Source: Heptranchias perlo
Lineage: Eukaryota
Direction of reading: 5' to 3'
DNA length: 64,000 nt
NCBI RefSeq assembly: GCF_035084215.1
Contig: NC_090333.1
Coordinates: 58,652,001 to 58,716,000 of the forward strand
Part shown: in pieces, positions 3,560-52,827 of the stretch
Layout of the letters: each line of letters begins with the position of its first letter
Position numbering within the stretch: position 1 is the first letter of the stretch
Made by a program: the position numbers and the translations under genes
Notes under the pieces: generated by a model
Told to the model about the DNA's origin: nothing
Database searches by the model: none
The model's input: only the letters and a program-made list of their open reading frames with translations

Positions 3560-4259
3560 GGAAACAGGCCGAGGCCTCCCTCACCGCGGGCTCGGAGCAG
3601 GTCCCTCCGGGCGGCGGCCCGTGTTTATATCCGCCTGACGCGGATGTAACCCGCTACCTTTCGATCCGCCCATTACACCCGGAATCGAGAGGGCGGGTCG
3701 GGAGAATGGCTACCTGCTGGAGCCGGAGCCGCCGGGATCCGAAGCCCAGGAGCGGGGAGCGGGGGTCGAACCACAGCGACACGTCAACGTCAGCCCAGCG
3801 CCCGCACTTAAAGGGATTGTCACTCAGGGAGGGCCCGGCGGATTTTAATACGCCGACAGATATATTGCCGGACCTTCTTGAGTGTTACGTTAAATAGCAC
3901 ACCCTGCACTTGGTCAGCTAGCCTGTGCCGCACACGTTACTTACTCGGGTAATTTTGTATTGACTTTGGCAGTAACAAGTTTGAGACAGCTAACGACACA
4001 ATTATTTACTTTGGACTCTACAGTTTTACTCACTTCAATTATTCTCCTCTACAGATGCGGAGAAAGCGGCCAGTTTATCTGCATTAAATTAATTCCAGTT
4101 TGCACCTCTTACTATCTGAGATTCCGACCAACGCTTCCGCCGAATTAGGTCCCACGGAAATGATGTAGTTTCAGTAGCAATTGAAATGTGAGCACTTCGG
4201 GTGTATTACACACAAGCTTCCTGAACACAGTAGTGAGCGACTAGTAGCCTTTCGTGGAC
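3560..4259. promoter_or_regulatory. CpG-rich bidirectional promoter region of YIPF1/DIO1, with candidate non-coding YIPF1 exon 1 donors at 3713 or 3944
   Basis: Locally high CpG content, GC boxes (gggcgg) and ETS-like cttccg/cggaa motifs between divergent genes. Minus-strand GTAAGT lies at 3944-3939. Confidence 0.55.
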
Positions 4260-4590
4260 ATGGGGAAATTGGCTGTGTACATGCAGACTCTGGTCATGCT
4301 AGTCTGTATTTGTGTGCAGTATTTAATAGGCAAAATTATGATGTTTGTCTTTCCTGAAGCTGTGAAGAAGTTCATGCTAAAAGTTGGGTTGAAAACCACC
4401 ATGACTCAAAACCCAAAGTTCAAGTACGAAGACTGGGGACCAACATTCTTCAATTTGCGCGTTGTGAAGATAATGATTAATCATACACTAATGAATTGCA
4501 CAGATGAAGCTTTTGTGGGTTCCTCTGCTCCCAATGCACGGGTCATTGACTTGGAGAATAAAGAATATAAAGTACTTGATTTCTTGAAAG
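4260..4590 (+). CDS. DIO1: Type I iodothyronine deiodinase, exon 1
   Basis: ATG at 4260. Encodes an N-terminal TM segment, MTQNPKFKYEDWGPTFF and APN...LDFLKG. Donor G|GTATGT at 4591 (phase 1). Confidence 0.95.
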
Positions 4591-4689
4591 GTATGTATGA
4601 ATTAAACGTAAGCCATGTGGTAACAATAGGAATTCTTCTGAAAACTGTAACATGCTCAAGGTTATGTGTTTTTCGAGTTCAGCAAATGC

Positions 4690-4880
4690 ACTGCCTCTCT
4701 TCCACGGCTTTGTCTGCACCCGGGTAGCCCTGGAGAGCTGGTACGCTGGAGACCTTCCGCGACCGGTGGGCACCGCAGTGACTGGAGTGCTTGGTTGATA
4801 CAGGACATATGTTAAGTTTCTTTTTGTCTTTTGTATAATTTGGGTGATATTAGTTCTGCTCCTCCTAAAAGGAGCACTTT
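4690..4880 (+). mobile_element. Tx1-like LINE 3' fragment in DIO1 intron 1
   Basis: Homologous to 51320-51540 (ctgcctctct...cgggtagccctggagag...ttccgcgac.ggtgggcaccgcag.gactggagtgc). Confidence 0.7.
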
Positions 4881-5419
4881 TGACAGACTTTTTAGTTGAT
4901 TTACGGGTTCACCAAAAGAGGCAATTGCATTTAACCTATTGTGTAATCCGTGGTTTAAAAATGTAACCGGATCCCTTGATGGTAAAAGCACAACATGATT
5001 GCGGGAATGAGCCATACAGTTCGGAAAGGTGCTGGGATAGATCTGTACTGAGTTAGCCGGGTCAGCATTTGTAACATTCTTCTATTTAAGATTAGGGTAA
5101 ACGAATTCAATCTTGTGTGGACTCTACATAAATAACTTATGTAGGTGTGCCCCACCCTAGGTTCTGTATATTATGCAATGAAGTGCAGGGGAGCTGAGGA
5201 ATTTTATCTGTAATCTGCAATCACTCAATGTCTCTAATGCAATTCAGGCAAATACACCCATACTCATATTTCTAAACAAGCCACACCTCACTGGTGTTTA
5301 AGCAACCAAGCATGCAAGGCAGAACTTTTATGGGAGCGAGATAGTGTTATCACCCAGAGCTGAGGTTCTGTTCATGTATCCCTAGTCTTGAGTGTTACAC
5401 TAATGAGTACAATAATGGA

Positions 5420-5647
5420 TGATTGTAAACAATTTTACAACACCAAGTTATAGTCCAACAATTTTATTTTTAATCCCACAAGCTTTCGGAGGCTTCCTCC
5501 TTCCTCAGGTGACCGTTCACCTGAGGAAGGAGGAAGCCTCCGAAAGCTTGTGGGATTAAAAATAAAATTGTTGGACTATAACTTGGTGTTGTAAAATTGT
5601 TTACAATTGTCAACCCCAGTCCATCACCGGCATCTCCACATCATGGC
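5420..5647 (+). mobile_element. Palindromic Penelope-like pseudo-LTR insertion, copy A
   Basis: Perfect ~91-bp inverted arms (5422-5512 and 5517-5607), a unique tail at 5608-5643, and a 12-bp TSD TACAATAATGGA (5408-5419, 5648-5659). Confidence 0.85.
5517..5552 (+). ncRNA. Minimal type I hammerhead ribozyme motif, mirrored on the minus strand at 5477-5512
   Basis: CAC-CTGAGGA-A-GGAGG-aag-CCTCC-GAAA-GC-TT-GTG gives the CUGANGA/GAAA/UH core, stem I CAC/GTG, a 5-bp stem II and a palindromic minimal stem III. Confidence 0.7.
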
Positions 5648-6680
5648 TACAATAATGGAGTTATAGACTATGTGTTCCTGTAGGTTGCTTTTCAATTACA
5701 ATATTATGCGTTTGGTACTTGGATTCCTATTCAAAGCTGATGCTGGCTTTTTACCAAGAGATTAAGTTGGTCTATGTTGTGTTGAAATAGGCCAGCATGC
5801 ATATAGCTGAAAGCTCTCCGGTAGCTTAGTGGGTAAATGCACTGTGATACAAAGCCTTACTCGCCCCTTAAATTGTTTCAATACCAATATATGAGATATG
5901 CTCAGTACCTCACCCAACATTCTTCAAGTGTATGTTGGTGAGCTATTTAACCCATAGAGGTCATTGAAGCCAAGTCCAAGCCTGACCGTGCAAATACGCT
6001 TTCCAGAAGAGGTCACTTGATGTCAAAGGAATGGGCACTTTGGGTATATTTCCCAACCCTAGCCTGGGGCACTGAGGCCAATTGCAGCACCTCAACTGCT
6101 GAGGTCGGCGAACTGAAAACAGAACCTGGGATCTTATGGTCTGTATGGCTCGTCGCCACATACTGTGTAAATCAGCGTTTCCCAAACTATTTTGGCTCCG
6201 ACCCCACAGTAGTGAAGGCGAGCATTCTCATGCCCCTTATAAATGTAAACATTAGATATTTGTTAATAACTTACAAAATATAAAACAAAGTTCAATAAAT
6301 CACAGTATAAAAATAAAATATACTGTTTTCCTAATGGTGCTGGCTCCTCCCCTCCTGTAAGGCAGCTTTTCCCAAACTGTGGGGCGTGCCTCCTGGTGTG
6401 GAGAGGTCAGAAAAATAAAATATTTGCAGAAAAAACGACATTGAGGTGAATCCTAAAGTGAACACTTTTGCCGTCCTCCTTACACTTTACACGTAGCGGT
6501 TTGGGACACTGCCTTAGATTGGTAAATCCCTTTTATTGTTCAGTTGCAGTGTCTTATCATTCATTATTTTCATGGTGTATAGCTTACCTGATTTGGTATG
6601 GCAGGTAATGTATGTTTAAGAGTTGCATGCAGGATCCTCTGGCAGCTAACTCTCAGATTGACATTTTTTTTTCTTTCTAG

Positions 6681-6824
6681 GTAACAGACCACTTGTGTTG
6701 AATTTTGGAAGCTGCACTTGACCCCCGTTTCTTTTCAAGTTTGATGAGTTCAAACAGCTTGTCAAAGACTTTACTTCTGTAGCTGATTTCCTCATTATCT
6801 ACATTCAAGAGGCACATGCCACAG
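6681..6824 (+). CDS. DIO1: DIO1 exon 2 with selenocysteine codon TGA at 6719-6721
   Basis: ttctAG| then [48 protein letters not shown], ending G|GT. 144 nt, phase 1/1. Confidence 0.97.
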
Positions 6825-7299
6825 GTACAAAAAGATTTCTAGAAAAGAGCCTTTTGATTTTGCTAATCTTCCTCGCACTGTTTTAAAACTGTATCTTCAA
6901 TGTGCACCAAAGGCTTGGTGGTAGATGGCTTGCTCAGTATGGTACTGAGTATATATACCAGGAAGATCCAGTCTGCTGGTTAGCTGATCCAAGCTGGAGC
7001 TGGTTAGTACATGTCAGTTAGCTAAGCAGGAGAGAAATCCTCCAGGATTCCCCTACTGATCACTAGCCAATGAACCAAGTTGGAAATTGCATGTGTGTAT
7101 TAATGTTAGATGAGTGTGATTCCCTTCATGGTTAAATACCTCACCAACACTTGTTTAGGCTCAGTCATGAAGGATTGTCACTTGGGCAAAGTACCAAAGG
7201 ACAGCTGACTACTATGAAAGTGTGCACTTCGTGGGTCTGTGTCTTCAGGAGGGAAAAAATTAGGGGGAAGAGATTACATCCTTTAAGTGTAATTAAAAC

Positions 7300-7476
7300 T
7301 TTTTTTTTTATTATTCGTTAATGGGATGTGGGCGTTGCTGCCAGGGCCGGCATTTATTGCCCATCCCTAACTGCCCTTGAGAAGGTGGTGAACAACTGAG
7401 TGGCTTGCTAGGCCATTTCGGAGGGCGATTAAGAACCACCCACATTTCTGTGGGTCTGGAGTCACATTTCGGCCAG
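7300..7476 (-). mobile_element. 3' part of a bipartite SINE (LINE 5' segment joined to LINE 3' tail)
   Basis: Minus strand reads gtgactccagacccacag...gcctagcaagccactcagttgt joined to caccaccttctcaagggca.ttagggatgggcaataaatg. The first part matches ~54510-54594 and the second matches 14475-14559. Confidence 0.8.
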
Positions 7477-8086
7477 TTAATTGGCTTTAACACCCCTGAA
7501 TTACAGAAGGGGAAAATTGGCCAAAATTCCCTCTCCTGACCATTACACAGTGACTCCTATTGGAAGTGCATGTGCATGGAAACAGGTGAAGACTAGATTG
7601 GGTTCGGCTGTAGTATCCTCCACAGTCAGCTAGCCTGCAGGCATATATTGTCGTGGCTCACAAAAACAAATAATGGACATTTGGACAAGGGATTTGATTG
7701 TGGCTGCTACCCCTGGAACTGTACCCTAGTGAAGGAGTTAATGTCCTTTCAATAGGGGAAGAAATATAAAACCAAGCTTAGTATCCTCTAACCACTACTG
7801 TGATTTGTTTCATCTTCTCCTACATTTACCAATCCTGGTGGTGTCCTAAACAATGCATTTAGACCTTTAACCTAGGTTTCTTATCAAATTAAAAATTCAC
7901 CAGTTAGGCTTTCTTCTGTACAAAAGTGGAGTTTGAAGTGTTTCAGTTCCTGACAAGTTTGACCAGTTCTACACACTCCTAAGTTAAGAAATCATTTGTT
8001 TTCCATATCATCTACAGCAAAATTACATAAGCAAATACTGTAAAGATTACACAATACTTATTTAATTTTTTTGTTCTTTGTTCCAG

Positions 8087-8286
8087 ATGGCTGGGCTTTC
8101 AGAAACAACGTGGATGTCAAACAACATCAAACATTAAGCAATCGTTTCAACGCGGCAAGGCTGTTGCTAAATGAAGAACCACCTTGTCCCGTGGTAGTGG
8201 ACACTATGGACAATGTGACTAGTGCCAAATATGCAGCTATGCCAGAGAGACTATATGTGGTGCTTAATGGCAAAATCATTTACAAG
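8087..8286 (+). CDS. DIO1: DIO1 exon 3
   Basis: ttccAG| then [15 protein letters not shown]...[11 protein letters not shown]...[19 protein letters not shown]|GTAA. 200 nt. Confidence 0.96.
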
Positions 8287-8732
8287 GTAACAAGTACTCT
8301 GACACGCAAAGATTACTTTGCAGGTTAAATCCATCCTCATGATGAAACCGATGCCCATTTATTTAATGGTTTTACTACTAGATTTTGAGTTGATATTTTG
8401 TTTCTGCCCAAGCCAAGGAGCACGGGCTAATAAATTTGATTTCCACACCCGCACCCCCCCCCCCCCCCCCCCACAACCCCCTGCCTTTTCCTGAAGGAGC
8501 CGATTCATGCTGGGTTGCAATTCCATAGGTGTCTGCAGCCATCTAGTAATCCAGTCCAAAGCTGCTATGGTTTGATTGCTGAACAATTGTCCTTCTGCCC
8601 TGCTTGTTGTCTTGCTATGCTTTCTGTCTCTAACTCAACCATGCTGTTCAAAAATGAGTAAAGAGCAGCAACATGCTCACAGCGTTAATTATTTTTATTC
8701 CCATACTCTAAGAAGAAAATAGCTGTACACGA

Positions 8733-10563: not shown

Positions 10564-11501
10564 ACCACTTTGGTTAATGTTTATTTTATGCTTTAAAAAA
10601 ATATATAAAAATCACTAAGGTTTAGCCTGTGAAAACTAGAACAGCAAATCATGATACATCAACAATTTACAACAGTTGTGATTATAAAATATTCAGTATT
10701 GGCAATACTAATATGAAACCTGATGAAAAAGACAAAATTATCCCAAAATAAACAAGATTCATGCATCCTTGCAAGTTTCATCGCTAACCTCAAGTACTGT
10801 TCTTGTTTTCATTATCCTAGACAAGCAATGGTTAAAATGGGCTGGAACATTCACAAGGGGCATTCTTGCCCTTATGCAACCCAAGTCACGATCTGACCTC
10901 TTGCCCCTGTTCCAGTCTCCCTATTCAGGCTAATCAAAATTATTAAGATATTATTATAGTTAGAAGTGCACATAGCAAGCATATGAATTGCAAAAACATG
11001 GCTCCATCCTTATAATGCAACGATTTCACAAACTTACAAGTGTATCAGAAATGTTAGAAAAGGGAGAAATGTTTCTTAAACCCTGGTTCTGTGCACTTGA
11101 AATGTTTACAAATCATATCACTGCTTCCAAAATGGATGTGGATATTGTATTTGTTAGACTATGCCAGTGTGTACTAAAAATATAACAAGTATCAAAGAAT
11201 TGTTTTACGCAATGTATGTTATGAAATGCATTTAATATGTAACCACACACATTGTATAAATCATATGTCTGTATCAACCACACTTATTTTAGGTAGCTAC
11301 ATTTATTCAGTAAATACACATTGTCCAAGCTAACTACTTTAATATAAAATCCACAGTTCACACTTTGTTTGAGTTTCATAGACATAAGAATGTAGTTTGT
11401 CTAGGAAAGGGTGGGCTGCATTCCCCAAAAGAGATAAGGGTAACATTAACTGTCTTGCCATTGTCTAGAACACATTACAGTTACCAGCCCAATCTCATCA
11501 A

Positions 11502-11760
11502 GATGTGGAGATGCCGGTGATGGACTGGGGTTGACAATTGTAAACAATTTTACAACACCAAGTTATAGTCCGGCAATCTTATTTTAAATTCACAAGCTTT
11601 CGGAGACTACCTCCTTCCTCAGGTGAACGAGGAAGGAGGTAGCCTCCTTGGAAAACATTTTCCACATCGTTCACCTGAGGAAGGAGGTAGCCTCCGAAAG
11701 CTTGTGAATTTAAAATAAAATTGCTGGACTATAACTTGGTGTTGTAAAATTGTTTACAAT
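11502..11760 (-). mobile_element. Palindromic Penelope-like insertion, copy B, with hammerhead cores at 11670-11708(+) and 11589-11627(-)
   Basis: Same tail and arms as copy A. TSD CAATCTCATCAA (11490-11501, 11757-11768). Stem I extends to TTCAC/GTGAA. Confidence 0.85.
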
Positions 11761-12916
11761 CTCATCAAAATTGATGAGGTTAAGTCTGGCCCCCTCAGCA
11801 AGGTGATAATGTCAGGTCGGCGCTCAGCCGGGATCTTTTCAGCCAGTTGATGAGGCCTTATGATCAATTTTGATGTTAAGTCAGCGTACCACATGATCTT
11901 CAGCTAACTGTATAAATATACAGCTCAAACAAAGGTTCAGGGTGGAGGTGCAGACTAGATTTGTCCAGGCAGATGTAAATGCTGGCAGAAGCCTAACGTC
12001 TGTGTAGTCGGAAGAAGTCTGCAGAAGACAGGATCCAAGGGGGTGAGGACCTTGAGAGGCCCAGGCACAAGCTCTGTCCATCGTGGAAGTGCTTAATATC
12101 ACCAGTTTCCATTCTGTAAACTGCTGCTTAAATACACAATGAATTAAACTGTTCTTTGCAATAAAGTACTTGCCACTGTAACCAATTGGTGTCAACTCAA
12201 ATCTTTCAAAACTGGGAAGTAGCAGAGCAGGGGCTCCCTAAGCGGTGTTAGACTGTATATTCCTAATATATTCTACATTCATGAAAATATATTATACTCT
12301 AAGGAATCAATTAATCTCACTTTTAATGTTATAGCTTTAAGTGTGCTGTTCTGATTGACTTTAATCACTGTACAATATTCCTTCAATAAATGTAACCACT
12401 ACTATATGATACAATCATTTTGAGAGCTGTGTACTTTTATCTACATACAATAACATCTTTTTTCTTAACTCCACCAATTCAATTGTGCTTGCCATTTTTA
12501 TGTAGATACAGTATTTGTGATTTTATCAGTCTGCTATTTGAGCTATTTAAATCAACACCTTTATAGAACCAATAAAGAAGAGCCACATTAAATAGAAATT
12601 AGATCAAGTACTGAAAGAGGCTTTTGGAAAATATAAATATCAAGAAAAGCAAAGATTCCCCTCCCCCCCACCAAACGCAAACCATATGAGGGAATCAAAA
12701 CTTAGATAAGTAATAAAAACAGCATAGTAAAGGGCTTCAGAAAATCAATGAATTTGACAAACCCTATACAGTTCAAAAAGGCAACAACTTCATAATTGAA
12801 ATTATTATGGGGGGAAAACAATCGAATGATTCTACTTACTTATTTGAATTGATACAACTTTTTGTTGTCTGACAAGTGATCCAATTCCAAACTAAATTGC
12901 TGAAATGCAACTACTA

Positions 12917-14559
12917 TCTCGGCCTCCTCCCGATATCCCCACCATCACAGAAGCCAGTCTTCAGCCAATTCGATTCACTCCATGTGACATCAAGAAACGG
13001 CTGAGTGCACTGGATACAGCAAAGGCCATGGGCCCTGACAACATCCCGGTTGTAGTGCTGAAGACTTGTGCTCCAGAACTAGCTGTGCCTCTAGCCAAGC
13101 TGTTCCAGTACAGCTACAACACTGGCATCTACCCGACAATGTGGAAAATTGCCCAGGTATGTCCTGTCCACAAAAAGCAGGACAAATCCAATCCCGCCAA
13201 TTACCACCCCATCAGTCTACTCTCAATCATCAGCAAAGTGATGGAAGGTGTCGTCGACAGTGCTATCAAGCAGTACTTACTCACCAATAACCTGCTCACC
13301 GGTGCTCAGTTTGGGTTCCGCCAGGACCACTCGGCTCCAGACCTCATTACAGCCTTGGTCCAAACATGGACACAAGAGCTGAATTCCAGAGGTGAGGTGA
13401 GAGTGACTGCCCTTGACATCAAGGCAGCATTTGACTGAGTGTGGCACCAAGGAGCCCCAGTAAAATTGAAGTCAATGGGAATCAGGGGGCAAACTCTCCA
13501 GTGGCTGGAGTCATACCTAGCACAAAGGAAGATGGTTGTGGTTGTTGGAGGCCAATCATCTCAGCCCCAGGGCATTGCTGCAGGAGTTCCCCAGGGCAGT
13601 GTCCTCGGCCCAACCATCTTCAGCTGCTTCATCAATGACCTTCCCTCCATCATAAGGTCAGAAATGGGGATGTTCGCTGATGATTGCAGTGTTCAGTTCC
13701 ATTCGCAACCCCTCAAATAATGAAGCAGTCCGAGCCCGCAAGCAGCAAGACCTGGACAACATCCAAGCTTGGGCTCATAAGTGGCAATTAACATTTGCGC
13801 CAGGCAATGATCTTCTCCAACAAGAGAGAGTCTAACCACCTCCCCTTGACATTCAACGGCATTACCATCACCGAATCCCCCACCATCAACATCCTGGGGG
13901 TCACCATTGACCAGAAGCTTAACTGGACCAGCCATATACTGTGGCTACAAAAGCAGGTCAGAGGCTGGGTATTCTGCACCAAGTGACTCACCTCCTGACT
14001 CCCCAAAGCCTTTCCACCATCTACAAGGCACAAGTCAGGAGTGTGATTGAATACTCTCCACTTGCCTGGATGAGTACAGCTCAAACAACACTCAAGAAGC
14101 TCGACACCATCCAGGACAAAGCAGCCCGCTTGACTGGCACCCCATTCACCACCCTAAACATTCACTCCCTTCACCACCGGCGCAGTGGCTGCAGTGTGTA
14201 CCATCCAAAGGATGCACTGCAGCAACTCGCCAAGGCTTCTTCGACAGCACCTCCCAAACCCGCGACCTCTCCCACCTAGAAGGACAAGAGTAGCAGGTAC
14301 ATGGGAACACCACCACCTGCACGTTCCCCCTCCAAGTCACACACCATCCCGACTTGGAAATATATCGTAGTTCCTTCATCGTCGCTGGGTCAAAATCCTG
14401 GAACTCCCTTCCTAACAGCACTGTGGGAGAACCTTCACCACACGGACTGCAGCGGTTCAAGAAGGCGGCTCACCACCACCTTCTCAAGGGCAATTAGGGA
14501 TGGGCAATAAATGCTGGCCTCGCCAGTGACGCCCACATCCCATGAACGAATAAAAAAAA
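12917..14559 (+). mobile_element. 5'-truncated LINE (CR1/L2-supergroup RT, family 2) with complete 3' tail
   Basis: RT motifs GPDNIP, YHPISLLSIISKVME, DIKAAFD, GVPQGSVLGP and MFADD, broken by stops and frameshifts. Ends ...gcccacatcccatgaacgaataaaaaaaa. Confidence 0.92.
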
Positions 14560-15359: not shown

Positions 15360-15929
15360 CTGCACAAACACACTTTGTCATTTCACATTCCATTATTTTA
15401 AAAAAAGTTACAGGTGATTGCAACTCGTGTAAAAGAGGGGCACTACAATTGGCTTTGGTGTCTGAGATAGGAAAAAGCAGCCTGTCCAATGAACTCTGCT
15501 GGAAAATACATGCATAGGACATGAACAGAACAGGTCTCTGCTTTGTATAAAGAGTGTCTATTCAGGCTCAGTACTAGAGGCTGCTGGTACCCAGCAAGAC
15601 TCAGCCCTTTCAGGAGAGGAGGGAAAGAAACAGACCTGGGGGGTGGGGTGGGGTGGGGTAGGGAGGGATTAATGAAATGGCACCATTTCTATTGCACAAG
15701 TCACAATACCATTTTCACATGTGTAAAATTGTATTTACCAATACTTGAGATGTATATCTTTGTTTTATTTCATTCCCCAACTTTGTGAGCAGTGCACCTT
15801 GCAATCCCAACATATTCAATATTACTTTAAACTAGCTGTTCAAAGGCCTATTTTGCACCTGGTTTGACACCGCATTGGAAATGTGTAATAGGTACAACAT
15901 TCTGTGAATTTCCCCCACTTTTCCATCAG

Positions 15930-17440
15930 CAGGAAGGTGCTGGCCCTTCACTCAGATGTTTGCCGCAACAATACATCTGGTTCGGGGGGGGGGGGGGGGG
16001 GGGGGGCCGGGACGTGCACCAAAAACTGGGAGGAACGTATTGCTAAAGTAAAGCAGAAACTGGGACTGTGGGATCGACGATCCCTCTCGATCATGGGCAA
16101 GAACCTGGTCATCAGGTGCGAGGTGCTCTCGTTGTTGCTGTACGTGGCGCATACCTCGCTCCTGTGCTGTGACAGTCACCCGAGCCATTTTCCACTTTAT
16201 CTGGAGATCAAAAATGGACCGAGTCCACAGGGACACGGTGTACAAATCTCCAGAGAAAGAGGGTAAAGGCGTGCTCAACGTGGCCCTCATCCTGATGGCC
16301 ACCTTTGTGTGCGGCTGCATCAAGCTGTGCGTAGACCCCCGGTACGCAAACACAAAGTGTCACTACGTGCTGAGGTTCTACCTGTCCCCGGTGTTGAGAA
16401 GGATGGGCCTGGCCACGCTGCCATGGAACGTTCCATCCAGTTGGACTGTTCCGACCCACCTGTCGAAAAGTTTGTGCAGAAAAACACTTTTGACCACAAG
16501 GCGGTCAGCAAGTGGTCTGCACATAACGTCCTTGAGACCCTGCGGGAAAAGGAGATGGTGGATCCTGTTGGTTGGTTCCCCGAGCAGACTGTCAGTGTCA
16601 TTTGGCAGAACGCCTCATCGCCAGAGCTTTCAAACAAGCACCAAGACCGAGCTTGGCTGGTGGTGAGAAGGGCCCTTCTCGTCAGATCCATCATGCACTC
16701 CCGGAGTCTCAGCGCCACCACGCGCTGTCCCCGAGGAGGCTGCAGTGGAGACGAGACCGTCACCCATCTCCTTCTGGAATGTGTCTTTGCAAAGAAGGTC
16801 TGAAGAGAGATGCAGTGGTATATGTCCAGGTTCATCCCAAGCAATTCCGTAACACAAGACTCTGTGCTCTACGGGCTGTTCCCGGGGACGCACACCAAGA
16901 CTGATATCAACCGCTGCTGGAAGACCATCAACTCGGTGAAAGACGCCCTTTGGTCTGCCCAAAACTTGCTGGTCTTCCAGTGCAAGGAGCTGTCCTTGAC
17001 TGAGTGGTGCAGACTGGCACATTCCAAGGTCCAGGACTACGTGCTCAGGGACGCACTGAAGCTGGGTGCGGCCGCCGCAAAGGCTCTGTGGGGAAAGGTA
17101 ACCATTTAGAGCCTTCCTGCCATTGTATACTAAGGGGCTGTAATCAGGGAAAAAAAACCCTCGGGCAGAATGTAAAATTCAAATTGATGTAATGTACCTG
17201 TAATGAATCTGTAATGTACCTGTAATGAATCTGTAATCAATAATCTGTATTGAGTGTAATGCAATGAGGCACCCTAGAGTGTCATGAACCGTAATTATGC
17301 ACAATGTGTTCATTGAAATGTACTTGATATAACCTGAAAATTGTATAATCTGTATTGTGTACGTTTGGAATGTGATACGACAACTGTATTGTATGTATTG
17401 CTGCAAATTTTATGAATAAAGTATATTTTTTTGAAAAAAA
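15930..17440 (+). mobile_element. Tx1-clade (L1 group) LINE 3' portion in IFT25 intron 4
   Basis: Encodes WEERIAKVKQKLGLW..RSLSIMGKNLVI, IFHFIW and the CCHC finger CPRGGC...ETVTHLLLEC. Has a TGTAAT-repeat 3'UTR, AATAAA at 17416 and an A-tail. Confidence 0.88.
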
Positions 17441-19405: not shown

Positions 19406-19857
19406 CCCAATAACTCGTTTTTCTTCTCCCCGAGAATGGCCAGTGGCTCTGGAACTGTGCTCAGTTCCAGTGCCTTCAGAAGAGGAGGAAGAAAAAATTG
19501 GTGCAAAAATAAAATGGGAAAATTCTGCAATGGATTAATGAGCCGCAAAACTTGCTGGAGATTATCTCGTCCTTGGTCTAAAAGTACCAGGACAAAGATA
19601 GTAAAAAAAAAAAATCCCAGATGAAGCTACAATGTATGGCGGGACTGCGGGCGGAGTTCCTGATCTCAGCCGTGTTGCTGTGGGGAGGAAGCACTGAGCA
19701 GCGGCCGGACAAACCATCTGCTGGCGACCGGCTCACCAGCATCGTCAGCCGGGGGAGGTGGGGCACGGGACGGTTGCAGAACACGGGGCAAACTGAGGTG
19801 AGGGAACCATCACACCGTTCAATAGATTCCCAACCTGGGCACTCCCTGGAGTCTGTA

Positions 19858-19958
19858 CCCCGCACCCGGGGGGACACCCGCACCCGGGGGGACACCCGCA
19901 CCCGGGGGCCCGCCCTCTCCCCGGGGGACACCCGCACCCGGGGGCCCGCCCTCTCCCG
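19858..19958. repeat. GC-rich short tandem repeat (cccgcacccggggg gaca) in IFT25 intron 1
   Basis: Four to five imperfect 18-nt and 39-nt units are directly visible. Confidence 0.8.
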
Positions 19959-19988
19959 GATCCACAGAGTTCTCCACCACTTCCTTAC

Positions 19989-20083
19989 CCATCGATGATG
20001 TTCTCCGGCGGATGTTTCTCATCTGCTGATGCCGCTAACACAAGCCGCGTCCCCGCAACGGCCAAACCAAAGTCCCGCTTCAT
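19989..20083 (-). CDS. IFT25: IFT25 exon 1
   Basis: ATG at 20083, then MKRDFGLAVAGTRLVLAASADEKHPPENIIDG|GTAAG. The five exons sum to 423 nt (140 aa). Confidence 0.95.
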
Positions 20084-20295
20084 GTCGGCCTCCCCGTTAC
20101 CACAACAACCCGTCACTTCCGGGCCTCCGCACAACCCTCCCCCCACCCTCGTGGGTCCGATTTAAGGTTCCGGTCCCACGAATTGTAGGAGCGGAGCGGA
20201 GGGAAATAGCCGCGTTTTACAGCTTGTCGGGGAAATCTTGATCGCTGCTCGGCCCGGGACCGCGGGCTGACGGTAGCCTGAAAGTGAGAGTAAGT
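20084..20295. promoter_or_regulatory. Compact CpG bidirectional promoter of IFT25/LRRC42, with candidate non-coding LRRC42 exon 1 (donor GTAAGT at 20290)
   Basis: CpG-rich, with ETS motif CACTTCCGG at 20114-20122. The genes diverge head-to-head. Confidence 0.65.
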
Positions 20296-20334
20296 GTGGG
20301 ACTCTGGGAAGATTGGAGAGAAGGAAATGCCCCC

Positions 20335-21575
20335 TCCCCCCGGGGGTCTCCTTCACTTCACTTCACTCCACTCCCCCCTCCCCCCGGGGGTCTCCTTCAC
20401 TCCACTCCCCCCACCCCCCGGGGGTCTCCTTCACTTCACTTCACTCCACTCCCCCCTCCCCCTCCCCCTCCCACCGGGGGTCTCCTTCACTCCACTCCCC
20501 CCACCCCCCGGGGGTCTCCTTCACTTCACTCCACTCCCCCCTCCCCCCGGGGGTCTCCTTCACTTCACTTCACTCCACTCCCCCCTCCCCCCGGGGGTCT
20601 CCTTCACTCCCCCCCCCCCTCCCACCGGGGGTCTCCTTCACTCCACTCCCCCCACCCCCCGGGGGTCTCCTTCACTTAACTCCACTCCCCCCTCCCCCCG
20701 GGGGTCTCCTTCACTTAACTCCACTCCCCCCTCCCCCCGGGGGTCTCCTTCACTTAACTCCACTCCCCCCTCCCCCCGGGGGTCTCCTTCACTCCCCCCC
20801 CCCCCCCCCTCCCACCGGGGGTCTCCTTCACTCCACTCCCCCCACCCCCCGGGGGTCTCCTTCACTTAACTCCACTCCCCCCTCCCCCCGGGGGTCTCCT
20901 TCACTTAACTCCACTCCCCCCTCCCCCCGGGGGTCTCCTTCACTTAACTCCACTCCCCCCTCCCCCCGGGGGTCTCCTTCACTCCACTCCCCCCTCCCAC
21001 CGGGGGTCTCCTTCACTTCACTACACCCCCCCCCTCCCCCCGGGGGTCTCCTTCACTCCACTCCAACCCCCTCCCCCCGGGGGTCTCCTTCACTTCACTC
21101 CACTCCAACCCCCTCCCCCCGGGGGTCTCCTTCACTCCACTCCACCCCTCCCTCCCCCCGGGGGTCTCCTTCACCTCCCCCCCGGGGGTCTCCTTCACCT
21201 CCCCCCCGGGGGTCTCCTTCACCTCCCCCCCGGGGGTCTCCTTCACCTCCCCCCCGGGGGTCTCCTTCACCTCCCCCCCGGGGGTCTCCTTCACCTCCCC
21301 CCCGGGGGTCTCCTTCACCTCCCCCCCGGGGGTCTCCTTCACCTCCCCCCCGGGGGTCTCCTTCACCTCCCCCCCGGGGGTCTCCTTCACCTCCCCCCCG
21401 GGGGTCTCCTTCACCTCCCCCCCGGGGGTCTCCTTCACCTCCCCCCCGGGGGTCTCCTTCACCTCCCCCCCGGGGGTCTCCTTCACCTCCCCCCCGGGGG
21501 TCTCCTTCACCTCCCCCCCGGGGGTCTCCTTCACCTCCCCCCCGGGGGTCTCCTTCACCTCCCCCCCCCCCCCCG
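20335..21575. repeat. Minisatellite with core CCCCGGGGGTCTCCTTCAC. Variable longer units grade into a perfect 24-bp array (~17 copies, ~21160-21560)
   Basis: Direct tandem periodicity, which translates as (KETPGGEV)n and (PPPRGSPS)n in the ORF track. Confidence 0.95.
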
Positions 21576-21759
21576 GTGGGTTTCATGTACGCAGAGCACT
21601 GGAATTAGTTTTGGGACGGGAGGAGTGGACTCTACGTGAACTAAAATGTTGCCATTCTCTTGGCACCCAGAACAGATAAAGTAGTGGGTGTGAGTTTAAA
21701 CTAGTCAGCTCAGGGGGCTGCATTGGAGTGTGTCCTTTGGATCTGTGCTAGGATTAGTT

Positions 21760-23960
21760 TTGTGTTCCATTTACGCAAATTATTTGAACATGGGAACAAG
21801 AGGAATGATGTAGAAGTTGGCACAGAAAAATGTGTTGTACAGTTCTTAACAGTGGAAGAACAGAGTGCAGGATGCAGGTGCATAGATCTTTAAAGGTGGG
21901 AGTGCAGGTAGTAAAAGGCTTAAGAAGGCTAATGGGAATCTGAGTATTATAGATTTATATATTGAATATGAAAGCAAGGAAATTATGCTAAATTTGTACA
22001 TGACTTAGTTGGAATTTTGTGAGCAGTTCTGGGCACCCCATGACAGTAAAGAGTAAAGCAAATATTTAGTACAGTAATATCAGAATGAGGTTATATTTTT
22101 GAAGAAAGACTTTGAAATTGGGCCTTTTTTCATTAGAACAGAGAAGCTCAAGGAGGGTTCCATTAGTCATTTTCAAAATAGTGAGATTGTTTCCAATTAT
22201 TCCAGTGAATCAGTAGCAAGGGAGCATAAACTCAGGGTTATCATTAGTGGGAAAGTTAGAACAAATGTTTTCACACAGTGAGTTATTAGAATATGGAATG
22301 CTTTACCTCAAGTGGCTGTGGAGACAGACCTGAATTTCAGCTCCACCAGCAGAAGCATAGCAATGTAGGTGGCTGTGGATACTGAATCAAATTGCATAGT
22401 TGGGACAAATTGTGACACCATGGAGCCCTAGTAAAATTGAAGTCATTGGGAATCAGGGGGTAAACTCTCCAGTGGCTGGAGTCATACCTAGCACAAAGGA
22501 AGATGGTAGTGGTTGTTGAAGGCCAATCATCTCAGCCCCAGGACATTGCTGCAGGAGTTTCTCAGGGCAGTGTCCTAGGCCCAACTATCTTCAGCTGCTT
22601 CATCAATGACCTTCCCTCCATCATAAGGTCAGAAATGGGGATGATTGCACAGTGTTCAGTTCCATTCACAACCCCTCAGATAATGAAGGTAGCCTGAAAG
22701 TGAGCAGGAGGCTTGCGTGAGGAAGTGAGAGTAAATGTGGGACTCTGGGAAGATTGGAGAGAAGAAAATGCTCCCTCCCCCGGGGGTCTCCATCACCCCG
22801 CCCCCTCCCCCCCCCTCACTGTGCCCGCATGCAGCAAGACCTGGACAACATCCAGGCTTGGGCTGATAAGTGGCAAGTAACATTCAAGCCAGATAAGTGC
22901 CAGGCAATGACCATCTCCAACAAGAGAGAGTCTAACCACCTCCCCTTGACATTCAACGGCATTACCATCAGCGAATCCCCCACCATCAACATCCTGGGGG
23001 TCACCATTGACCAGAAACTTAACTGGACCAGCCACATAAATACTGTGGCTACAACGGCAGGTCAGAGGCTGGGTATTCTGCGGCGAGTGACTCACCTCCT
23101 GACTCCACAAAGCCTTTCCACCATCTACAAGGCACAAGTCAGGAGTGTGATAGAATACTCTCCACTTGCCTGGATGAGTGCAGCTCCAACAACACTCAAG
23201 AAGCTCGACACCATCCAGGACAAAGCAGCCCGCTTGATTGGCACCCCATCCACCACCCTAAACATTCACCACACGGACTGCAGCGGTTGAAGAAGACAGC
23301 TCACCACCACCTTCTCGAGGGCAATTAGGGATGGGCAATAAATGCTGGTCTTGCCAGTGACGTCCACATCCAATGAACAAATTTTAAAAATAAGACAGCT
23401 GCACCTCTGTTGCTGTATTAATGGCACTTGCGATCTACCGGCAGAGAGTGGATCAGCCCAGAGCCTCCCTCCTCGGGAGACCCCAAAGCCAAGGCCATTG
23501 TCATTCCCCGGATGAAGTTAAAATGAAGTAAAAGCTTCTTCAGCTCCTAAGGGAGCTAGCTGGCGAGCATTCCGTTGAAGCCTTTTAAGGGCATATTGCA
23601 TGGAATTTTCTGGGTAACCCAGGAACTCCCCCAGACGTCTGTTTAATGTAGTGAGGGAGGGTGGAAGACCTACTTGCTCGCTTTCCCCCACCCCTCCAAT
23701 CCCCTGGCCCCCACCAGAATTTAGGGTAGGTCTTGGAATGAGGCAGAACTAGGTTTCTCCACAAATAAAGATCCCCCAGTCTACAAATCCGCCATTGGGT
23801 TCGATTGGAACTTCAGACCTAGAGATTATAAACATAATTTAAAAGGAAATTGGATAAGTATTTGAAAAGCAAGAATATAAAGGGATATGGGGAAATGGCA
23901 GGAAAATAGGATTACAGTTGTTAACTCCACATGGGCCTCCTCTGTTGTAATATCTGTGAT
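21760..23960 (+). mobile_element. Nested cluster: old CR1 (21760-22325 and 23820-23960) split by a MITE-like element, which is split by a family-2 LINE fragment (22415-23390)
   Basis: The CR1 3' sequence resumes at 23820. LINE RT ORFs are 22503..22697 and 22754..23290, with the tail at 23300-23390. Short TIR-like ends lie at ~22325 and ~23807. Confidence 0.7.
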
Positions 23961-24813: not shown

Positions 24814-24869
24814 GTACAGTCTCTCCTAACTGATCTGATGTGGCAGTATTGAGAATTCAAGACCCTGCG

Positions 24870-30580: not shown

Positions 30581-30769
30581 AAGTTCCTCCCCCTAAATGC
30601 CTGTCACAAAATATGGAATAAAGTAAAATCAACATTCTGGGATATTGTCAATTAACTTTAAAAATACAAACATCTCCCAGAGCAACAGTAGATTTGTTCA
30701 GAGTTCCTGCAATAGGATCCTTAAAACAGAAACCAATTATTACCTGCACTGTTGTTTCTTCTGCACTAG

Positions 30770-35970: not shown

Positions 35971-36357
35971 GGAGACAATTATTCATAAAATCTACCTCTG
36001 TGTCTCACATCCATATATATTGTATTCAGTGTCAAGAAACTGTTTTCTGTCAGTCTATCAACTGCAATCAATTAAAACAAGTGTGCTTTTTTTGTTTGCC
36101 TGTTTTCTCTCCTCCTCTCCTGAAGGTACAGGTTCTTGTTGAGACACAATTCCACAGTTATTTACTACCCTCCAGAACCTCCTCCAATAGCCATTCTTCA
36201 CATGTAAACCTAGGCGATGAGTGTCAACCGGCTGCTTGACTGTGAGTGGGCACTACATCCAAATACATCTACCATCCAGTTATCACTACATGGCCATCGA
36301 GTGTGGGAATCCTGGCTGATCTGTTTTTTCTCTCTTTCCCCCTGCTCCTTTCCCATT

Positions 36358-36562
36358 ATGTGGAGATGCCGGTGATGGACTGGGGTGGACAAATGTAAGG
36401 AATCTTACAACACCAGGTTATAGTCCAACAGTTTTATTTGAAAATCACAAGCTTTCGGAGGCTTTCTCCTTCGTCAGGTGAGACGAAGGAGAAAGCCTCC
36501 GAAAGCTTGTGATTTTCAAATAAAACTGTTGGACTATAACCTGGTGTTGTAAGATTCCTTAC
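36358..36562 (-). mobile_element. Palindromic Penelope-like insertion, copy C (subfamily 2), with hammerhead core at 36446-36480(-)
   Basis: TSD CCTTTCCCATT (36347-36357, 36562-36572). Minus strand reads CAC-CTGACGA-AGGAGAAAGCCTCC-GAAA-GCTT-GTG. Confidence 0.85.
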
Positions 36563-36739
36563 CTTTCCCATTGGCATGGCATTTACTATGTTAGGAATGG
36601 TTAGAATGTCCAGCTCCCATTCCAGCGCCACACTGTCTCGTACAATATTCTATCGTAATTTGTGAAATAACTTGCAATTCTCTTTTTCTCTGCTTTTATA
36701 ATATTTACATAAATATGATCAAATTCATTTATTTCCTAG

Positions 36740-46751: not shown

Positions 46752-49700
46752 TCATAGAAATATAGAATCTTACAGCACAGAAAGAGGCCTTTTGGCCCAT
46801 CGTGCCTCTGCCGGCTCTTTGAAAGAGCTATCTGATTTAGTCCCACACCCTAGCTTTTTCCCCATAACCCTGCAAATTAGTCAACTTCAAGAACATGTCC
46901 AATTGCCTTTTGAAAGTTCCTATGGAATCTGCTTCCATCAACCTTTCAGGTAGTGCTTTACAGGTTTTAACAACCCTCTGTGTGAAAAAAAATCTCCTTA
47001 TTTCCCCTCTAGTTCTTTTGGCAATTATTTTAAAACAATGACCTCTGGTTACTAACCCACTTACCAAAGGAAACAGTTTCTCCCTAATATCTCCTCATTA
47101 TTTTGAATACTGCTATTAGGTCTCCCTTTAACCTTCTCTGCTCTAAGGAGAACAATCCCCCAGCTTCTCCAATCTCTCCACATAACTGAAGTCCCTCATC
47201 CCTGGTATCATCCTGGTAAACCTCCTCTATATCTCTCATCTCCAAATCCTTGACATTCTTTCATAAGTGTGCTGCCCAGAATTGTACACAATACTCCAGC
47301 TGAGGCCTAAACAGTGATTTGTGAAGGTTTAGCATGACTTCCTTTTTTTTTGTATTCAATGCCCCTGTTTACAAAACCAAGTATCCCATATGCTTTCTTA
47401 ACTGCCTTATCAACTTGCCCTGCCACCTTCAAAGATTTGTGAATATGCACCCCCAGGTCCCTCTGCTCTTGCACCCCTCTCAAAATAGTCCAACTTAGAT
47501 TATACTGCCTCTCCATGTTGTTTCTACCTAGGTGCATTATTTCACACTTATCTGCATTAAATTGCATCTGCCATGTGTCTGCCCATTTCACCAGTCTGTC
47601 TATCTCCTCCTGAAGTCTGCTACTATCATCCTCACTATCTACCACATTGCCAAGGTTTGAATCAACGGTAAACTTCAAAATTGTACTCCATATACTCAAG
47701 TCCAGGTCATTTATATATAACAAGAAAAGCAATGGTCCTAATACCGATCACTGGGGGGACCCCACTGCATACTTCTCTCCAGTCAGAAGAACATCCAACC
47801 GACTATTCTCTGCCTCCTGTCCCTTAGCCAATTATGTACCCAAGTTGCCACTGTCCCTTTAAACCCATGTGCTTCTATTTTCTGAATAAGTATTTCATCA
47901 AAAGCCTTTTTAAAGTTCAGATATACAACACCTACTGCACTATCTTCTGTTACTTCATCAAAGAACTCAATCAGGTTAGTCAGACACAATTTGCCTTTAA
48001 CAAATCCGAGCTGGCTGTCCCTTATTAACCCATGCTTCTCCAATGAGAATGGTCTCTAATAGTTTTCCCACCACTAACATTAGACTGACTGGCCTGTACT
48101 TATAGGTTTATTCCTCTCCCCTTTTTTGATGTGGAGATGCCGGTGATGGACTTGGGTGGACAAATGTAAGGAATCTTACAACACCAGGATATAGTCCAAC
48201 AGTTTTATTGGAAAATCACAAGCTTTCGGAGGAGAAATGCCTCCGAAAGCTTGTGATTTTCAAATAAAACTGTTGGACTATAACCTGGTGTTGTAAGATT
48301 CCTTACATTTGTCCCCTTTTTTGAACAGAGATGTAACACTTGCAATCCTCCAGTCCTCTGGCACCATTCCCATATCCAAGGAGGATTGAAAGATTGTAGT
48401 CAGAGCTTCTGCTATCCCCACCCTCAGCAATCTATGATGCATCCCATCTGGACCGGGTAACTTGTTGACTTTGAGTGATACCAACCTATTTAGCACCTCC
48501 TTTCAATCTATTTTTATCCTATTCAATATCTCTACTCCCTCTTCCTCTACTGCGACATTAACTTCATCCTCTTCTTTTGTGAAGACAGATGCAAAATACT
48601 CATTCAGTAACTCAATGCCCTCTGCCTCCACAAGAAGATTTCCTTTTTTGTTTCTAATCGGCCCCACCATTCCTTTAACTGTCCTTTTACTTTTTATATG
48701 TTTATAAAAGATTTATGGGTTCCCTTTTATGTTACCCACTAATCTTTTCTCATAATCTCTCTTTGCCCTTCTTAACATAGAAACATAGAAAATAGGAGGA
48801 GGAGTAGGCCATTCGGCCCTTCGAGCCTGCTCCGCCATTCAATATGATCATGGCTGATCCTCTATCTCAATACCATATTCCCGCTCTCTCCTCATTCCCC
48901 TTGATGCCTTTTGTGTCTAGAAGTCTATCTGGCTCCATCTTAAATATATTCAGTGACTTGGCCTCCACAGCCTTCTGTGGTAGAGAATTTCACAGGTTCA
49001 CTACCCTCTGAGTGAAGAAATTTCTCCTCATCTCAGTCCTAAATGTCCTACCCCGTATCCTGAGACTGAGAGGGTTCCAGAACCCCTCGTTCTGGAACCC
49101 TCAGCCAGGGGAAACATCCTCCCTGCATCCAGTCTGTCTAGCCCTGTCAGAATTTTATATGTTTCAATGAGATCCCCTCTCATTCTTCTAAAGTCAAGTG
49201 AATACAGGCCGAATCGACCCAATCTCTCCTCATACGACAGTCCTGCCATCCCAGGAATCAGTCTGGTGAATCTTCGCTGCACTCCCTCTATGGCAAGTAT
49301 ATCTTTTCTTAGGTAAGGAGACCAAAACTGCACACAATACTCCAGGTGTGGTCTCACCAAGGCCCTGTATAACTGCAGTAAGACATCCTTGCTCCTGTAC
49401 TCAAATCCTCTTGCAATGAAGGCCAACATACCATTTGCCTTCCTAATTGCTTGCTGCACCTGCATGTTTGCTTTCAGTGACTAGTGTACAAGGACACCCA
49501 AGTCCCTTTGTACATCAACATTTCCCAATCTATCACCATTTAAATAATACTTTGCCTTTCTCTTTTTCCTTCCGAAGTGGATAACTTCACATTTATCCAC
49601 ATTATACTGCATCTGCCATGTATTTGCCCACTCACTCAACTTGTCTAAAACACCTTGAAGTCTCTGCATCCTCCTCATAACTCACGATCCCACCTAGTTT

Positions 49701-52534: not shown

Positions 52535-52619
52535 CTGAGGGGAGGAGGAAGAAAAACACATCAATTTACATTCTGATACAAAAACCAGCCTTCAATGAAG
52601 TGCCCGGCACATCTAAAAG

Positions 52620-52785
52620 GATGTGGAGATGCCGGTGATGGACTGGGGTTGACAATTGTAAACAATTTTACAACACCAAGTTATTTTCCACACCGTTCAC
52701 CTGAGGAAGGAGGAAGCCTCCGAAAGCTTGTGGAATTTAAAATAAATTTGTTGGACTATAACTTGGTGTTGTAAAATTGTTTACA
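52620..52785 (-). mobile_element. Penelope-like insertion, copy E (asymmetric arms), with hammerhead core at 52696-52733(+)
   Basis: TSD ACATCTAAAAGGA (52609-52621, 52783-52795). Lies in LDLRAD1 intron 2. Confidence 0.85.
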
Positions 52786-52827
52786 TCTAAAAGGAAGCAG
52801 CGTGAATTTCCCACTCGCCACCTTTAC

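What the first reader, a model, noticed from the sequence alone, without database searches (positions are those of the whole stretch)
5420..5659. Family of tiny fold-back Penelope-type insertions carrying hammerhead ribozyme cores (5 copies in 64 kb)
Seen: five 165-260 bp elements (5420, 11502, 36358, 48128, 52620), each with inverted arms, a constant ~35-nt one-sided tail (caaccccagtccatcaccggcatctccacatc) and an 11-13 bp TSD. They form two subfamilies, A/B/E and C/D. Four contain CAC-CTGANGA-A-stemII-GAAA-GCTT-GTG. Established: Penelope-like element pseudo-LTRs encode minimal type I hammerheads with a palindromic stem III thought to act as dimers, and PLE insertions often form inverted pLTR pairs with a tail. 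Inference: this is an abundant, recently active, non-coding PLE derivative whose inversion point falls at or next to the ribozyme, which hints that self-cleavage defines the 5' end of the retrotransposed RNA. Caveats: there is an extra A after the CUGANGA box and the CUU cleavage triplet is weak.
Basis: partly seen in the sequence, partly recalled or inferred. Interest (0 to 1): 0.8.

Follow-up and report, generated by a model that had tools for sequence, protein, structure and literature searches.

The report
Tiny double-primed Penelope insertions in shark
Five short palindromic repeats in a shark genome are cut-short insertions of a Penelope-type jumping gene carrying its known small ribozyme; their ends suggest that both sides of the DNA cut copied the RNA separately.

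Summary
There are exactly five elements, 161-255 bp between exact 11-13 bp TSDs, with head-to-head arms and a 32-40 nt tail on one side. Six arms in four copies match the published Penelope-like element (PLE) minimal hammerhead consensus (0 hits in 300 shuffles). The extra A and the GCUU end are normal for that class. The host is a shark (LRRC42 exon 99% identical to Heptranchias perlo). Every junction differs. In 3 of 5 copies neither arm contains the other, so one arm is not a fold-back copy of the other. Target ends match the template beyond chance (18 nt over 9 ends; 3.1 expected). Best reading: dead-end, 5'-truncated PLE insertions in which both 3' overhangs of a staggered cut primed on uncleaved (or religated) sense RNA, one at each of two internal start sites, and the two cDNAs were then joined head to head. 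No RT/GIY-YIG ORF could be linked and cleavage is untested. A new member of a known kind, with a testable mechanistic hint.

The parts
5408..5419 (.). Copy A left TSD (12 bp)
5420..5512 (-). Copy A tail-less arm, template -33..+58 relative to the scissile bond, plus 2 non-matching nt at 5420-5421; hammerhead C3 at 5508, predicted cut 5480/5479
5512..5647 (+). Copy A tail-bearing arm, template -38..+98; shares 1 nt (5512) with the other arm
5516..5554 (+). Minimal type I hammerhead: helix I 5 bp, CUGAGGA-A, helix II 5 bp with 3-nt loop, GAAA-GC-UU; predicted cut 5549/5550
   Evidence: consensus
5561..5566 (+). AATAAA just 3' of the ribozyme, candidate polyadenylation signal (inference)
   Evidence: sequence
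5590..5605 (+). Small hairpin carrying the proximal RT start; one A-U to G-C double change between subfamilies
5608..5647 (+). Tail, the stretch between the two inferred RT start sites; ATG at 5643-5645 may be the ORF start (inference)
   Evidence: tail meaning
5648..5659 (.). Copy A right TSD
11490..11768 (.). Copy B with 12-bp TSDs (11490-11501, 11757-11768): tail arm on minus strand 11502-11630 (-37..+93), patchwork junction 11629-11656, tail-less arm on plus strand 11657-11756 (-47..+54); hammerheads C3 at 11622(-) and 11675(+)
36347..36572 (.). Copy C with 11-bp TSDs (36347-36357, 36562-36572): tail arm on minus strand 36358-36481 (-33..+92, hammerhead C3 at 36477), tail-less arm on plus strand 36482-36561 (-27..+53, lacks C3-U4); lies in the last LRRC42 coding intron
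48117..48324 (.). Copy D with 13-bp TSDs (48117-48129, 48312-48324): tail arm on minus strand 48130-48232 (-13..+91), tail-less arm on plus strand 48230-48311 (-22..+59); junction inside helix II with 3-nt overlap; no CUGANGA box
52609..52795 (.). Copy E with 13-bp TSDs (52609-52621, 52783-52795): tail arm on minus strand 52622-52684 (+29..+91), tail-less arm on plus strand 52683-52782 (-47..+53, hammerhead C3 at 52701); 2-nt overlap at the junction

Best explanation
These are dead-end, extremely 5'-truncated insertions of a shark endonuclease-bearing Penelope-like element; what remains is its pLTR end. (1) Inferred from PLE biology: a GIY-YIG/RT protein encoded elsewhere cuts both target strands 11-13 nt apart, leaving two 3' overhangs (TSD shown). 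(2) Shown by sequence, interpreted by inference: each overhang pairs by 0-4 nt with sense-strand RNA and primes cDNA, one at a proximal site (+53..+59 from the scissile bond, on a small hairpin) and one at a distal site (+91..+98). The stretch between the sites is the one-sided tail. (3) Shown: the cDNAs usually read through an intact hammerhead, so the template was uncleaved, or cleaved and religated, at that site. Of 10 arms, 9 stop 13-47 nt upstream of the cut. (4) Inferred: the two cDNA ends are joined head to head by 0-3 nt microhomology or by template switches (up to four pieces in B), giving a palindrome. The ribozyme is cargo of the pLTR here. The two copies in one insertion lie on opposite strands and cannot dimerise in cis, and in read-through RNA the long hairpin replaces the ribozyme fold.
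For: Exact TSDs of 11-13 bp in 5 of 5. Target ends match the template continuation by 18 nt over 9 ends against 3.08 expected (P 4e-6); counting A's short end as 0 gives 16 nt, P 3e-5. Both classes of end show it: short ends of B-E 11 nt over 4 ends (P 5e-5), tail ends 5 nt over 4 ends (P 0.03; 12 of 20 first-five matches, P 0.001). All 5 insertions pair one proximal with one distal start (P 0.031 if independent at 50:50), with offsets of 40, 39, 39, 32 and 38 nt. In B, D and E each arm holds template sequence that the other lacks. All five junctions differ. In vitro, the anole PLE protein cleaves and extends both strands, starts at two internal sites that bound the tail, is predicted to be a dimer, and inserts equally well with a dead hammerhead (PMC11167929). 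Helix I/II pair probabilities are 0.0 in whole-element RNA for A, B and C.
Against: No RT+GIY-YIG ORF was linked. None of 290 ORFs of >=62 aa scanned had a GIY-YIG hit, and the open frame through the arm found nothing. Only five copies were available, and the rest of the genome was not. The tail-end template continuation comes from copy A alone, and A's own tail end could not be scored. Two of four scored tail ends have 0 exact microhomology. D's extra 5' stretch is only 8 matching nt followed by a 1-nt insertion, so non-containment is firm for B and E and weaker for D. The 5-of-5 pairing is only P 0.03. The two-primer joining step has not been shown in any paper I read. In E the asymmetric arms leave the hammerhead foldable (helix I 0.89, helix II 0.99), so 'silenced by its own hairpin' does not hold for every copy.
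Confidence: 0.7

Rival explanations
1. One reading: hammerhead self-cleavage makes the 5' end of the RNA, and the inversion forms where RT runs off that end.
For: Nine of 10 arm ends lie within 47 nt upstream of the cut, and arm lengths are far more uniform than memoryless termination would give (CV 0.23; P 1e-4 to 5e-3 depending on the detection floor).
Against: A type I hammerhead leaves its core on the 5' product, so run-off copies would start at +1 and lack the core. Instead 9 of 10 arms contain sequence upstream of the bond and none ends within 3 nt of it. In the anole element, hammerhead mutants did not change insertion and no RNA-seq reads began or ended at the cut.
Confidence: 0.05
2. 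The ribozyme does cut, but the RNA is religated into a circle (or RT jumps precisely across the cut), so cDNA reads through a restored site. This is compatible with double priming and changes only the template.
For: Proposed for PLEs by Cervera & de la Pena 2014. The core is invariant in 6 of 6 motifs except at N7, and helix changes are one-sided or at helix ends.
Against: There is no positive sign of a circle: no head-to-tail unit and no permuted junction in the five copies. Unprocessed RNA was the dominant substrate in vitro.
Confidence: 0.2
3. One TPRT event followed by self-priming (fold-back) at a palindromic junction, possibly on an antisense template, as proposed for rotifer PLEs.
For: Proposed by Arkhipova et al. 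2013 to explain head-to-head inversions. In A and C the short arm is contained in the tail arm. Within each copy the arms share copy-specific variants. B's junction includes a 5-nt switch at helix II and a 7-nt inverted piece.
Against: In B, D and E neither arm can be copied from the other. Junction overlaps are only 0-3 nt in A, C, D and E. Target/template matches at both outer ends point to two primers.
Confidence: 0.12
4. The template is a dedicated short non-autonomous RNA (SINE-like or retrozyme-like master of about 150 nt with a 5' end near -47), not the mRNA of an autonomous PLE. This concerns the template and is compatible with double priming.
For: No arm passes -47 (or -54 if B's inverted piece is native). 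The B and E tail-less arms start at the same base, -47. Arm lengths are uniform. Non-autonomous PLE derivatives are described.
Against: An autonomous transcript also carries the start sites near its 5' end, and priming there would give the same short copies. Long palindromes may also be purged from the genome (inference). There is no tandem unit in the window. The -47 coincidence rests on two arms, and E's start is also a 2-nt microhomology.
Confidence: 0.3
5. A MITE or other small DNA transposon with long terminal inverted repeats.
For: Near-perfect inverted arms, small size, TSDs and high density.
Against: Ends vary by up to 7 nt, one end carries a tail outside the inverted repeat, TSD length varies, and every centre is different. 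The arms carry a PLE-type hammerhead.
Confidence: 0.02

Closest known systems
Endonuclease-bearing Penelope-like elements (Penelope/Poseidon, Neptune, Nematis, Naiad); insertion structure in Craig et al. 2021 (PMC8557442, passages) and Arkhipova et al. 2013 (PMC3846280, passages and Discussion)
   Same: Strong 5' truncation, an inverted head-to-head copy, a 30-40 bp tail at one end, and TSDs (8-10 bp in the rotifer examples).
   Different: Here the whole insertion is two truncated pLTR ends with no ORF between them; TSDs are 11-13 bp; no partial tandem is seen; the clade cannot be assigned without the protein.
PAc, Poseidon of Anolis carolinensis (Frangieh et al. 2024, PMC11167929; main text read)
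   Same: Hammerhead upstream of two internal RT start sites that bound the tail; AC-containing start region with a stem-loop; RNA copied through an uncut ribozyme.
   Different: In PAc the ORF starts at helix II. Here no ATG lies there; the only ATG in copy A's sense arm is at the tail end. The paper's model leaves the steps after initiation open and does not describe joining of two cDNAs.
PLE minimal type I hammerheads (Cervera & de la Pena 2014, PMC4209133; results, discussion, supplement parts 1-2 of 3)
   Same: CUGANGAH box, G10.1-C11.1 pair, palindromic 15.2-16.2 pair, short helix I, U-rich 5' and AU-rich 3' flanks; opposite-strand pairs 100-700 bp apart were noted in Schistosoma.
   Different: No cartilaginous fish is in their 56-motif alignment. 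Helix II here is 4-5 bp with a 3-5 nt loop. Activity was not tested here.
Animal non-LTR retrozymes (Li et al. 2026, bioRxiv 10.64898/2026.07.22.740005; part 1 of 5 and passages)
   Same: Short non-coding repeats with type I hammerheads, linked to PLE pLTRs and found in one chondrichthyan.
   Different: They are defined by head-to-tail tandems with same-strand ribozymes; these copies are dispersed, head-to-head and TSD-flanked.
L1 twin priming (recalled, no call)
   Same: Two target 3' ends prime on sense RNA and are joined by microhomology, giving an inversion.
   Different: L1 twin priming gives non-overlapping pieces and a poly(A) end. Here both arms copy the same interval from starts 32-40 nt apart, giving a palindrome.

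Membership tests
EN+ Penelope-like element | ORF with telomerase-like RT and GIY-YIG endonuclease linked to this terminus | tested here: inconclusive
   No GIY-YIG hit in 290 window ORFs of >=62 aa; no protein hit for the arm frame. The copies are too short to hold an ORF and the host genome was not available.
EN+ Penelope-like element | Hammerhead motif in the pLTR | tested here: met
   6 motifs in 4 of 5 copies; 0 in 300 shuffles
EN+ Penelope-like element | Inverted 5'-truncated copy, head to head | tested here: met
   5 of 5 copies
EN+ Penelope-like element | 30-40 bp tail at one end | tested here: met
   40, 39, 39, 32 and 38 nt
EN+ Penelope-like element | Short TSD of variable length | tested here: met
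   12, 12, 11, 13 and 13 bp
EN+ Penelope-like element | Partial tandem (direct pLTR-ORF-pLTR) master copy | not testable with these tools
   None in the window; no eukaryotic genome collection was searchable
EN+ Penelope-like element | Clade (Poseidon, Neptune, Nematis) by RT phylogeny and linker motif | not testable with these tools
   No protein sequence linked
PLE minimal hammerhead | CUGANGAH and GAAA-N-N'-UH core with palindromic 15.2-16.2 and G10.1-C11.1 | tested here: met
   against the consensus
PLE minimal hammerhead | Helix I and helix II can form | tested here: met
   Helix I 4-6 bp, helix II 4-5 bp; 96% of cells paired against 24-52% when slid. Predicted folding in single arms varies: helix I 0.03-1.0.
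PLE minimal hammerhead | Compensatory covariation in helices I and II | tested here: inconclusive
   0 of 10 pairs with a two-sided change, 3 with one-sided changes; no better than shuffles (267 of 500); only 5 near-identical sequences
PLE minimal hammerhead | Mg2+-dependent self-cleavage as dimer or with protein | not testable with these tools
   Needs the bench
Rfam hammerhead families | Score against a curated hammerhead model | tested here: not met
   No hammerhead hit at E<=10; the motif lacks a helix III
Non-LTR retrozyme | At least two head-to-tail units, each with a hammerhead | tested here: not met
   All five copies are head-to-head; definition
MITE | Fixed terminal inverted repeats at both ends, fixed TSD length, shared internal sequence (recalled) | tested here: not met

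The most novel reading that the evidence does not exclude
The standard PLE integration event is two-ended. One dimeric RNP primes both 3' overhangs on sense RNA with coupled site choice, one subunit at the proximal start and the other at the distal start, probably on the same RNA molecule, since both arms of a copy share its private variants. The two cDNAs are then joined head to head. This single step would explain the inverted pLTR, the one-sided tail and the TSD together, without antisense templates or ribozyme cleavage. The 5' limit near -47 may mark the RNA's true start. Sharks, at roughly 78 copies per Mb if this window is typical, would supply a very large natural data set to test it.
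Probability: 0.45. Interest if true: 0.65.

Novelty: new member of a known kind. Interest (0 to 1): 0.38.

Why it matters
The element class, its ribozyme, the inverted arms and the tail are all published, so the family itself is an addition to a catalogue. The value lies in the junctions. How PLEs make tandem and inverted structures is called undefined in Craig et al. 2021. The explanation I found in print is antisense self-priming, and the 2024 in vitro work stops at initiation. These ORF-less copies keep both outer ends and the central joint within 260 bp, so each one records a whole integration event. If the pattern holds genome-wide it discriminates between those models with a simple computation. 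The copies also cover 1.6% of this window, and three lie between exons of host genes, where they would form 70-90 bp RNA hairpins in pre-mRNA (inference).

Tried and rejected
Rfam scan: no hammerhead model hit; the miRNA-family hits are generic hairpin matches below gathering score. PLE ORF in the window: 290 stop-free frames of >=62 aa were scanned with Pfam, leaving out the repeat array at 19.5-21.75 kb and shorter frames. There was no GIY-YIG hit; the RVT_1 hits fall in the long interspersed repeats, which I read as CR1/Tx1-type LINE fragments from recalled motifs. Idea that the open frame through the hammerhead arm is the C-terminus of a PLE ORF: 4 candidates and none at E<=10, 0 hits among 1.84 billion representatives, no Atlas hit; unsupported, though queries of 30-40 aa are weak. 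Scan of bacterial and archaeal genomes for stray host contigs: 2 matches to a 21-nt motif, neither extending beyond 21-23 nt, judged chance. Covariation in hammerhead helices: no two-sided change. Fold of the +11..+93 region: z -1.56 and -0.97, not better than shuffles, so only the single compensatory pair supports the start-site hairpin. My first value for E's tail-arm end (+23) was a chance extension of a local alignment; the exact parse gives +29 and the statistics were redone. Dating: arm-to-arm divergence is 5 of 357 nt (1.4%, 95% CI 0.5-3.2%; A, C and E have 0 differences). At the epaulette shark rate of 7e-10 per generation (PMC10587355, abstract) that would be about 1e7 generations, and RT errors or gene conversion could bias it either way, so 'recent' is not established. 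Lunse et al. on dimer cleavage was not held; I saw only its title and a review's summary.

Full report
Observation. The five elements are real. blastn of copy A's sense arm and tail against the window gave ten strong matches, two per locus, and nothing else better than E 0.28. The tail motif occurs 5 times, with 0.00 expected. Each element sits between exact direct repeats of 12, 12, 11, 13 and 13 bp; 39 of 2000 random boundary pairs reached 11 bp or more. Lengths between TSDs are 228, 255, 204, 182 and 161 bp. A/B/E and C/D are two subfamilies, 84-91% identical to each other. All five have the same layout once A is flipped: TSD, antisense arm with tail, junction, sense arm without tail, TSD.

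Host and setting. An exon at 24347-24817 is 99% identical to LRRC42 of the shark Heptranchias perlo, with other sharks and rays at 87-94% and other vertebrates at 55-68%. The window is therefore from a shark close to that species. Pfam places deiodinase exons at the left and LDLRAD1-like exons on the minus strand at 43-51 kb. Copy A lies between deiodinase exons, C in the last LRRC42 coding intron and D between LDLRAD1-like exons; I did not place B and E. The density is 78 per Mb (95% CI 25-182) and 1.6% of the window. Penelope is listed among whale shark repeats (PMC8455134, one passage).

Ribozyme. A descriptor written from the published PLE minimal hammerhead consensus finds six motifs, in A (2), B (2), C (1) and E (1), and none in 300 shuffles. 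D's arms stop inside helix II. Cervera & de la Pena list a nucleotide between 9 and 10.1, the G10.1-C11.1 pair and a palindromic 15.2-16.2 as consistent traits. Their alignment includes G-C-U-U ends in Philodina and Chrysemys. Among the six motifs the only core change is at N7, the free position. Against this, there is no two-sided covariation in 10 helix pairs across 5 near-identical sequences, Rfam has no hammerhead hit, and activity is untested. The published metazoan motifs cleave weakly and only as dimers or with protein.

Where the arms end. Numbering from the predicted scissile bond, the tail arms span -38..+98 (A), -37..+93 (B), -33..+92 (C), -13..+91 (D) and +29..+91 (E). The tail-less arms span -33..+58, -47..+54, -27..+53, -22..+59 and -47..+53 (plus or minus 1 between subfamilies). 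Nine of ten arms cross the bond and the nearest end is 13 nt away. A cleaved linear RNA would begin at +1 and lack the core, so self-cleavage does not set the inversion point. This agrees with the anole element, where ribozyme mutants inserted normally and no reads ended at the cut. A cleaved and religated circle is not excluded. The ends are still not random: arm lengths have CV 0.23 (P 1e-4 to 5e-3 under memoryless stopping), and two arms begin at the same base, -47. A true RNA 5' end, an RT stall at the ribozyme or bound protein, or loss of longer palindromes could each produce this, and five copies cannot separate them.

How the palindrome forms. All five junctions differ. Overlaps are 1 nt (A), 0-2 nt (C), 3 nt (D) and 2 nt (E). 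B is a patchwork of an antisense-to-sense switch, a 5-nt switch at helix II and a 7-nt inverted piece. So the palindromes were not copied from one another, and a MITE is excluded. In B, D and E the tail arm has the tail that the other arm lacks, while the other arm has 5' sequence that the tail arm lacks. Neither arm can be a fold-back copy of the other; this is firm for B and E and weaker for D. In A and C fold-back remains possible. At the outer ends the target continues the template by 18 nt over 9 scorable ends against 3.08 expected (P 4e-6), or 16 nt if A's end with two mismatched bases is counted as zero (P 3e-5). A's tail end could not be scored, and two of four tail ends have no exact match, though 12 of 20 first-five bases match. 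With these bases counted as target the TSDs are 11-13 bp; without them B-E would be 8, 10, 7 and 8. Every insertion has one proximal and one distal end, 32-40 nt apart (P 0.031 if independent). The proximal end sits on a 6-bp hairpin with one A-U to G-C double change between subfamilies, although the region as a whole folds no better than shuffles.

Mechanism. The simplest reading joins these observations to the in vitro result that the anole PLE protein cleaves and extends both target strands from two internal starts that bound the tail, and is predicted to be a dimer (PMC11167929). A staggered cut gives two 3' overhangs. Each pairs briefly with sense RNA, one at each start. Both cDNAs run towards the 5' end, usually through the uncut ribozyme, stop within 63-136 nt, and are joined head to head. 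Shown: TSDs, end positions, microhomology, non-containment, read-through of the bond. Inferred: the enzyme, the coupling, and the joining step. The arms of each copy share its private variants, which fits one RNA or one source locus but also later gene conversion. In the inserted state the two ribozymes are on opposite strands. In whole-element RNA their helices have pair probability 0.0 for A, B and C, but 0.89-0.99 for E.

What could not be shown. No PLE protein was linked, and the bacterial genome scan gave two chance matches. PLE membership therefore rests on the ribozyme and the insertion structure, not on the ORF. Whether the template is an autonomous mRNA or a short non-autonomous RNA is open. 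Age is open too: arms differ at 5 of 357 sites, and shark mutation rates are low.

Comparison with print. Inverted truncated copies and the 30-40 bp one-sided tail are standard PLE features (PMC8557442 passages; PMC3846280 passages and Discussion; PMC8969392 passages). A 34-bp repeat at the ORF start is described for Drosophila Penelope (PMC2377424 passages). Opposite-strand pairs of minimal hammerheads were noted in Schistosoma. Non-LTR retrozymes are head-to-tail and do not match. Nine searches of the open library showed no description of this shark family and no explicit two-primer joining model for PLEs. I judged most hits from listings and abstracts only. Subscription papers, Repbase and Dfam were not searchable, so the family may already be deposited there. 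The supplementary figures of PMC11167929 gave only scattered text and its GenBank file could not be read; they bear on the exact position of the second start site.

Verdict. This is a new member of a known kind. Interest 0.38.

Noticed in passing
window 57156-61518: Endogenous retrovirus-like remnant on the minus strand: env (57812-58912, TLV_coat), integrase core (59485-60114) and RNase H (60369-60584) in separate frames, flanked by 223-nt direct repeats at 57156-57378 and 61296-61518 (92%), possibly LTR parts.
   Followed up: no
window 4248-8325, 24347-36990, 43061-50774: Host genes: iodothyronine deiodinase exons, LRRC42 (7 coding exons by tblastn) and LDLRAD1-like exons on the minus strand.
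   Followed up: partly
window 45720-47891: Large inverted pair of LINE-like fragments (arms about 45720-46611 and 46837-47744, 72-85% complementary), between LDLRAD1-like exons and next to copy D.
   Followed up: no
window 19841-21663: C-rich tandem arrays with 18-nt, 34-39-nt and 24-nt units; the central 24-nt copies are 100% identical.
   Followed up: no
window 11657-11668 and 52683-52694: The tail-less arms of B and E start at the same template base (-47), in a pyrimidine-rich stretch resembling an initiator (consensus recalled). In B an 8-nt stretch there is identical to the tail end.
   Followed up: partly
window 5561-5566 and 5643-5645: AATAAA follows the ribozyme in most arms, and the only ATG in copy A's sense arm lies at the tail end. 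This differs from the anole element, whose ORF starts at helix II.
   Followed up: partly
window 11650-11715, 52685-52771: One frame through the hammerhead is open for 22-29 codons, and the two differences between B and E upstream of the cut are synonymous in it; protein searches found nothing.
   Followed up: yes
window 12896-14276, 22464-23325, 55041-57277 and 15892-17106: Three related RT-bearing LINE fragments (91-95% identical in shared parts) and one fragment with a zf-RVT domain; several other LINE 3' fragments of another family.
   Followed up: no
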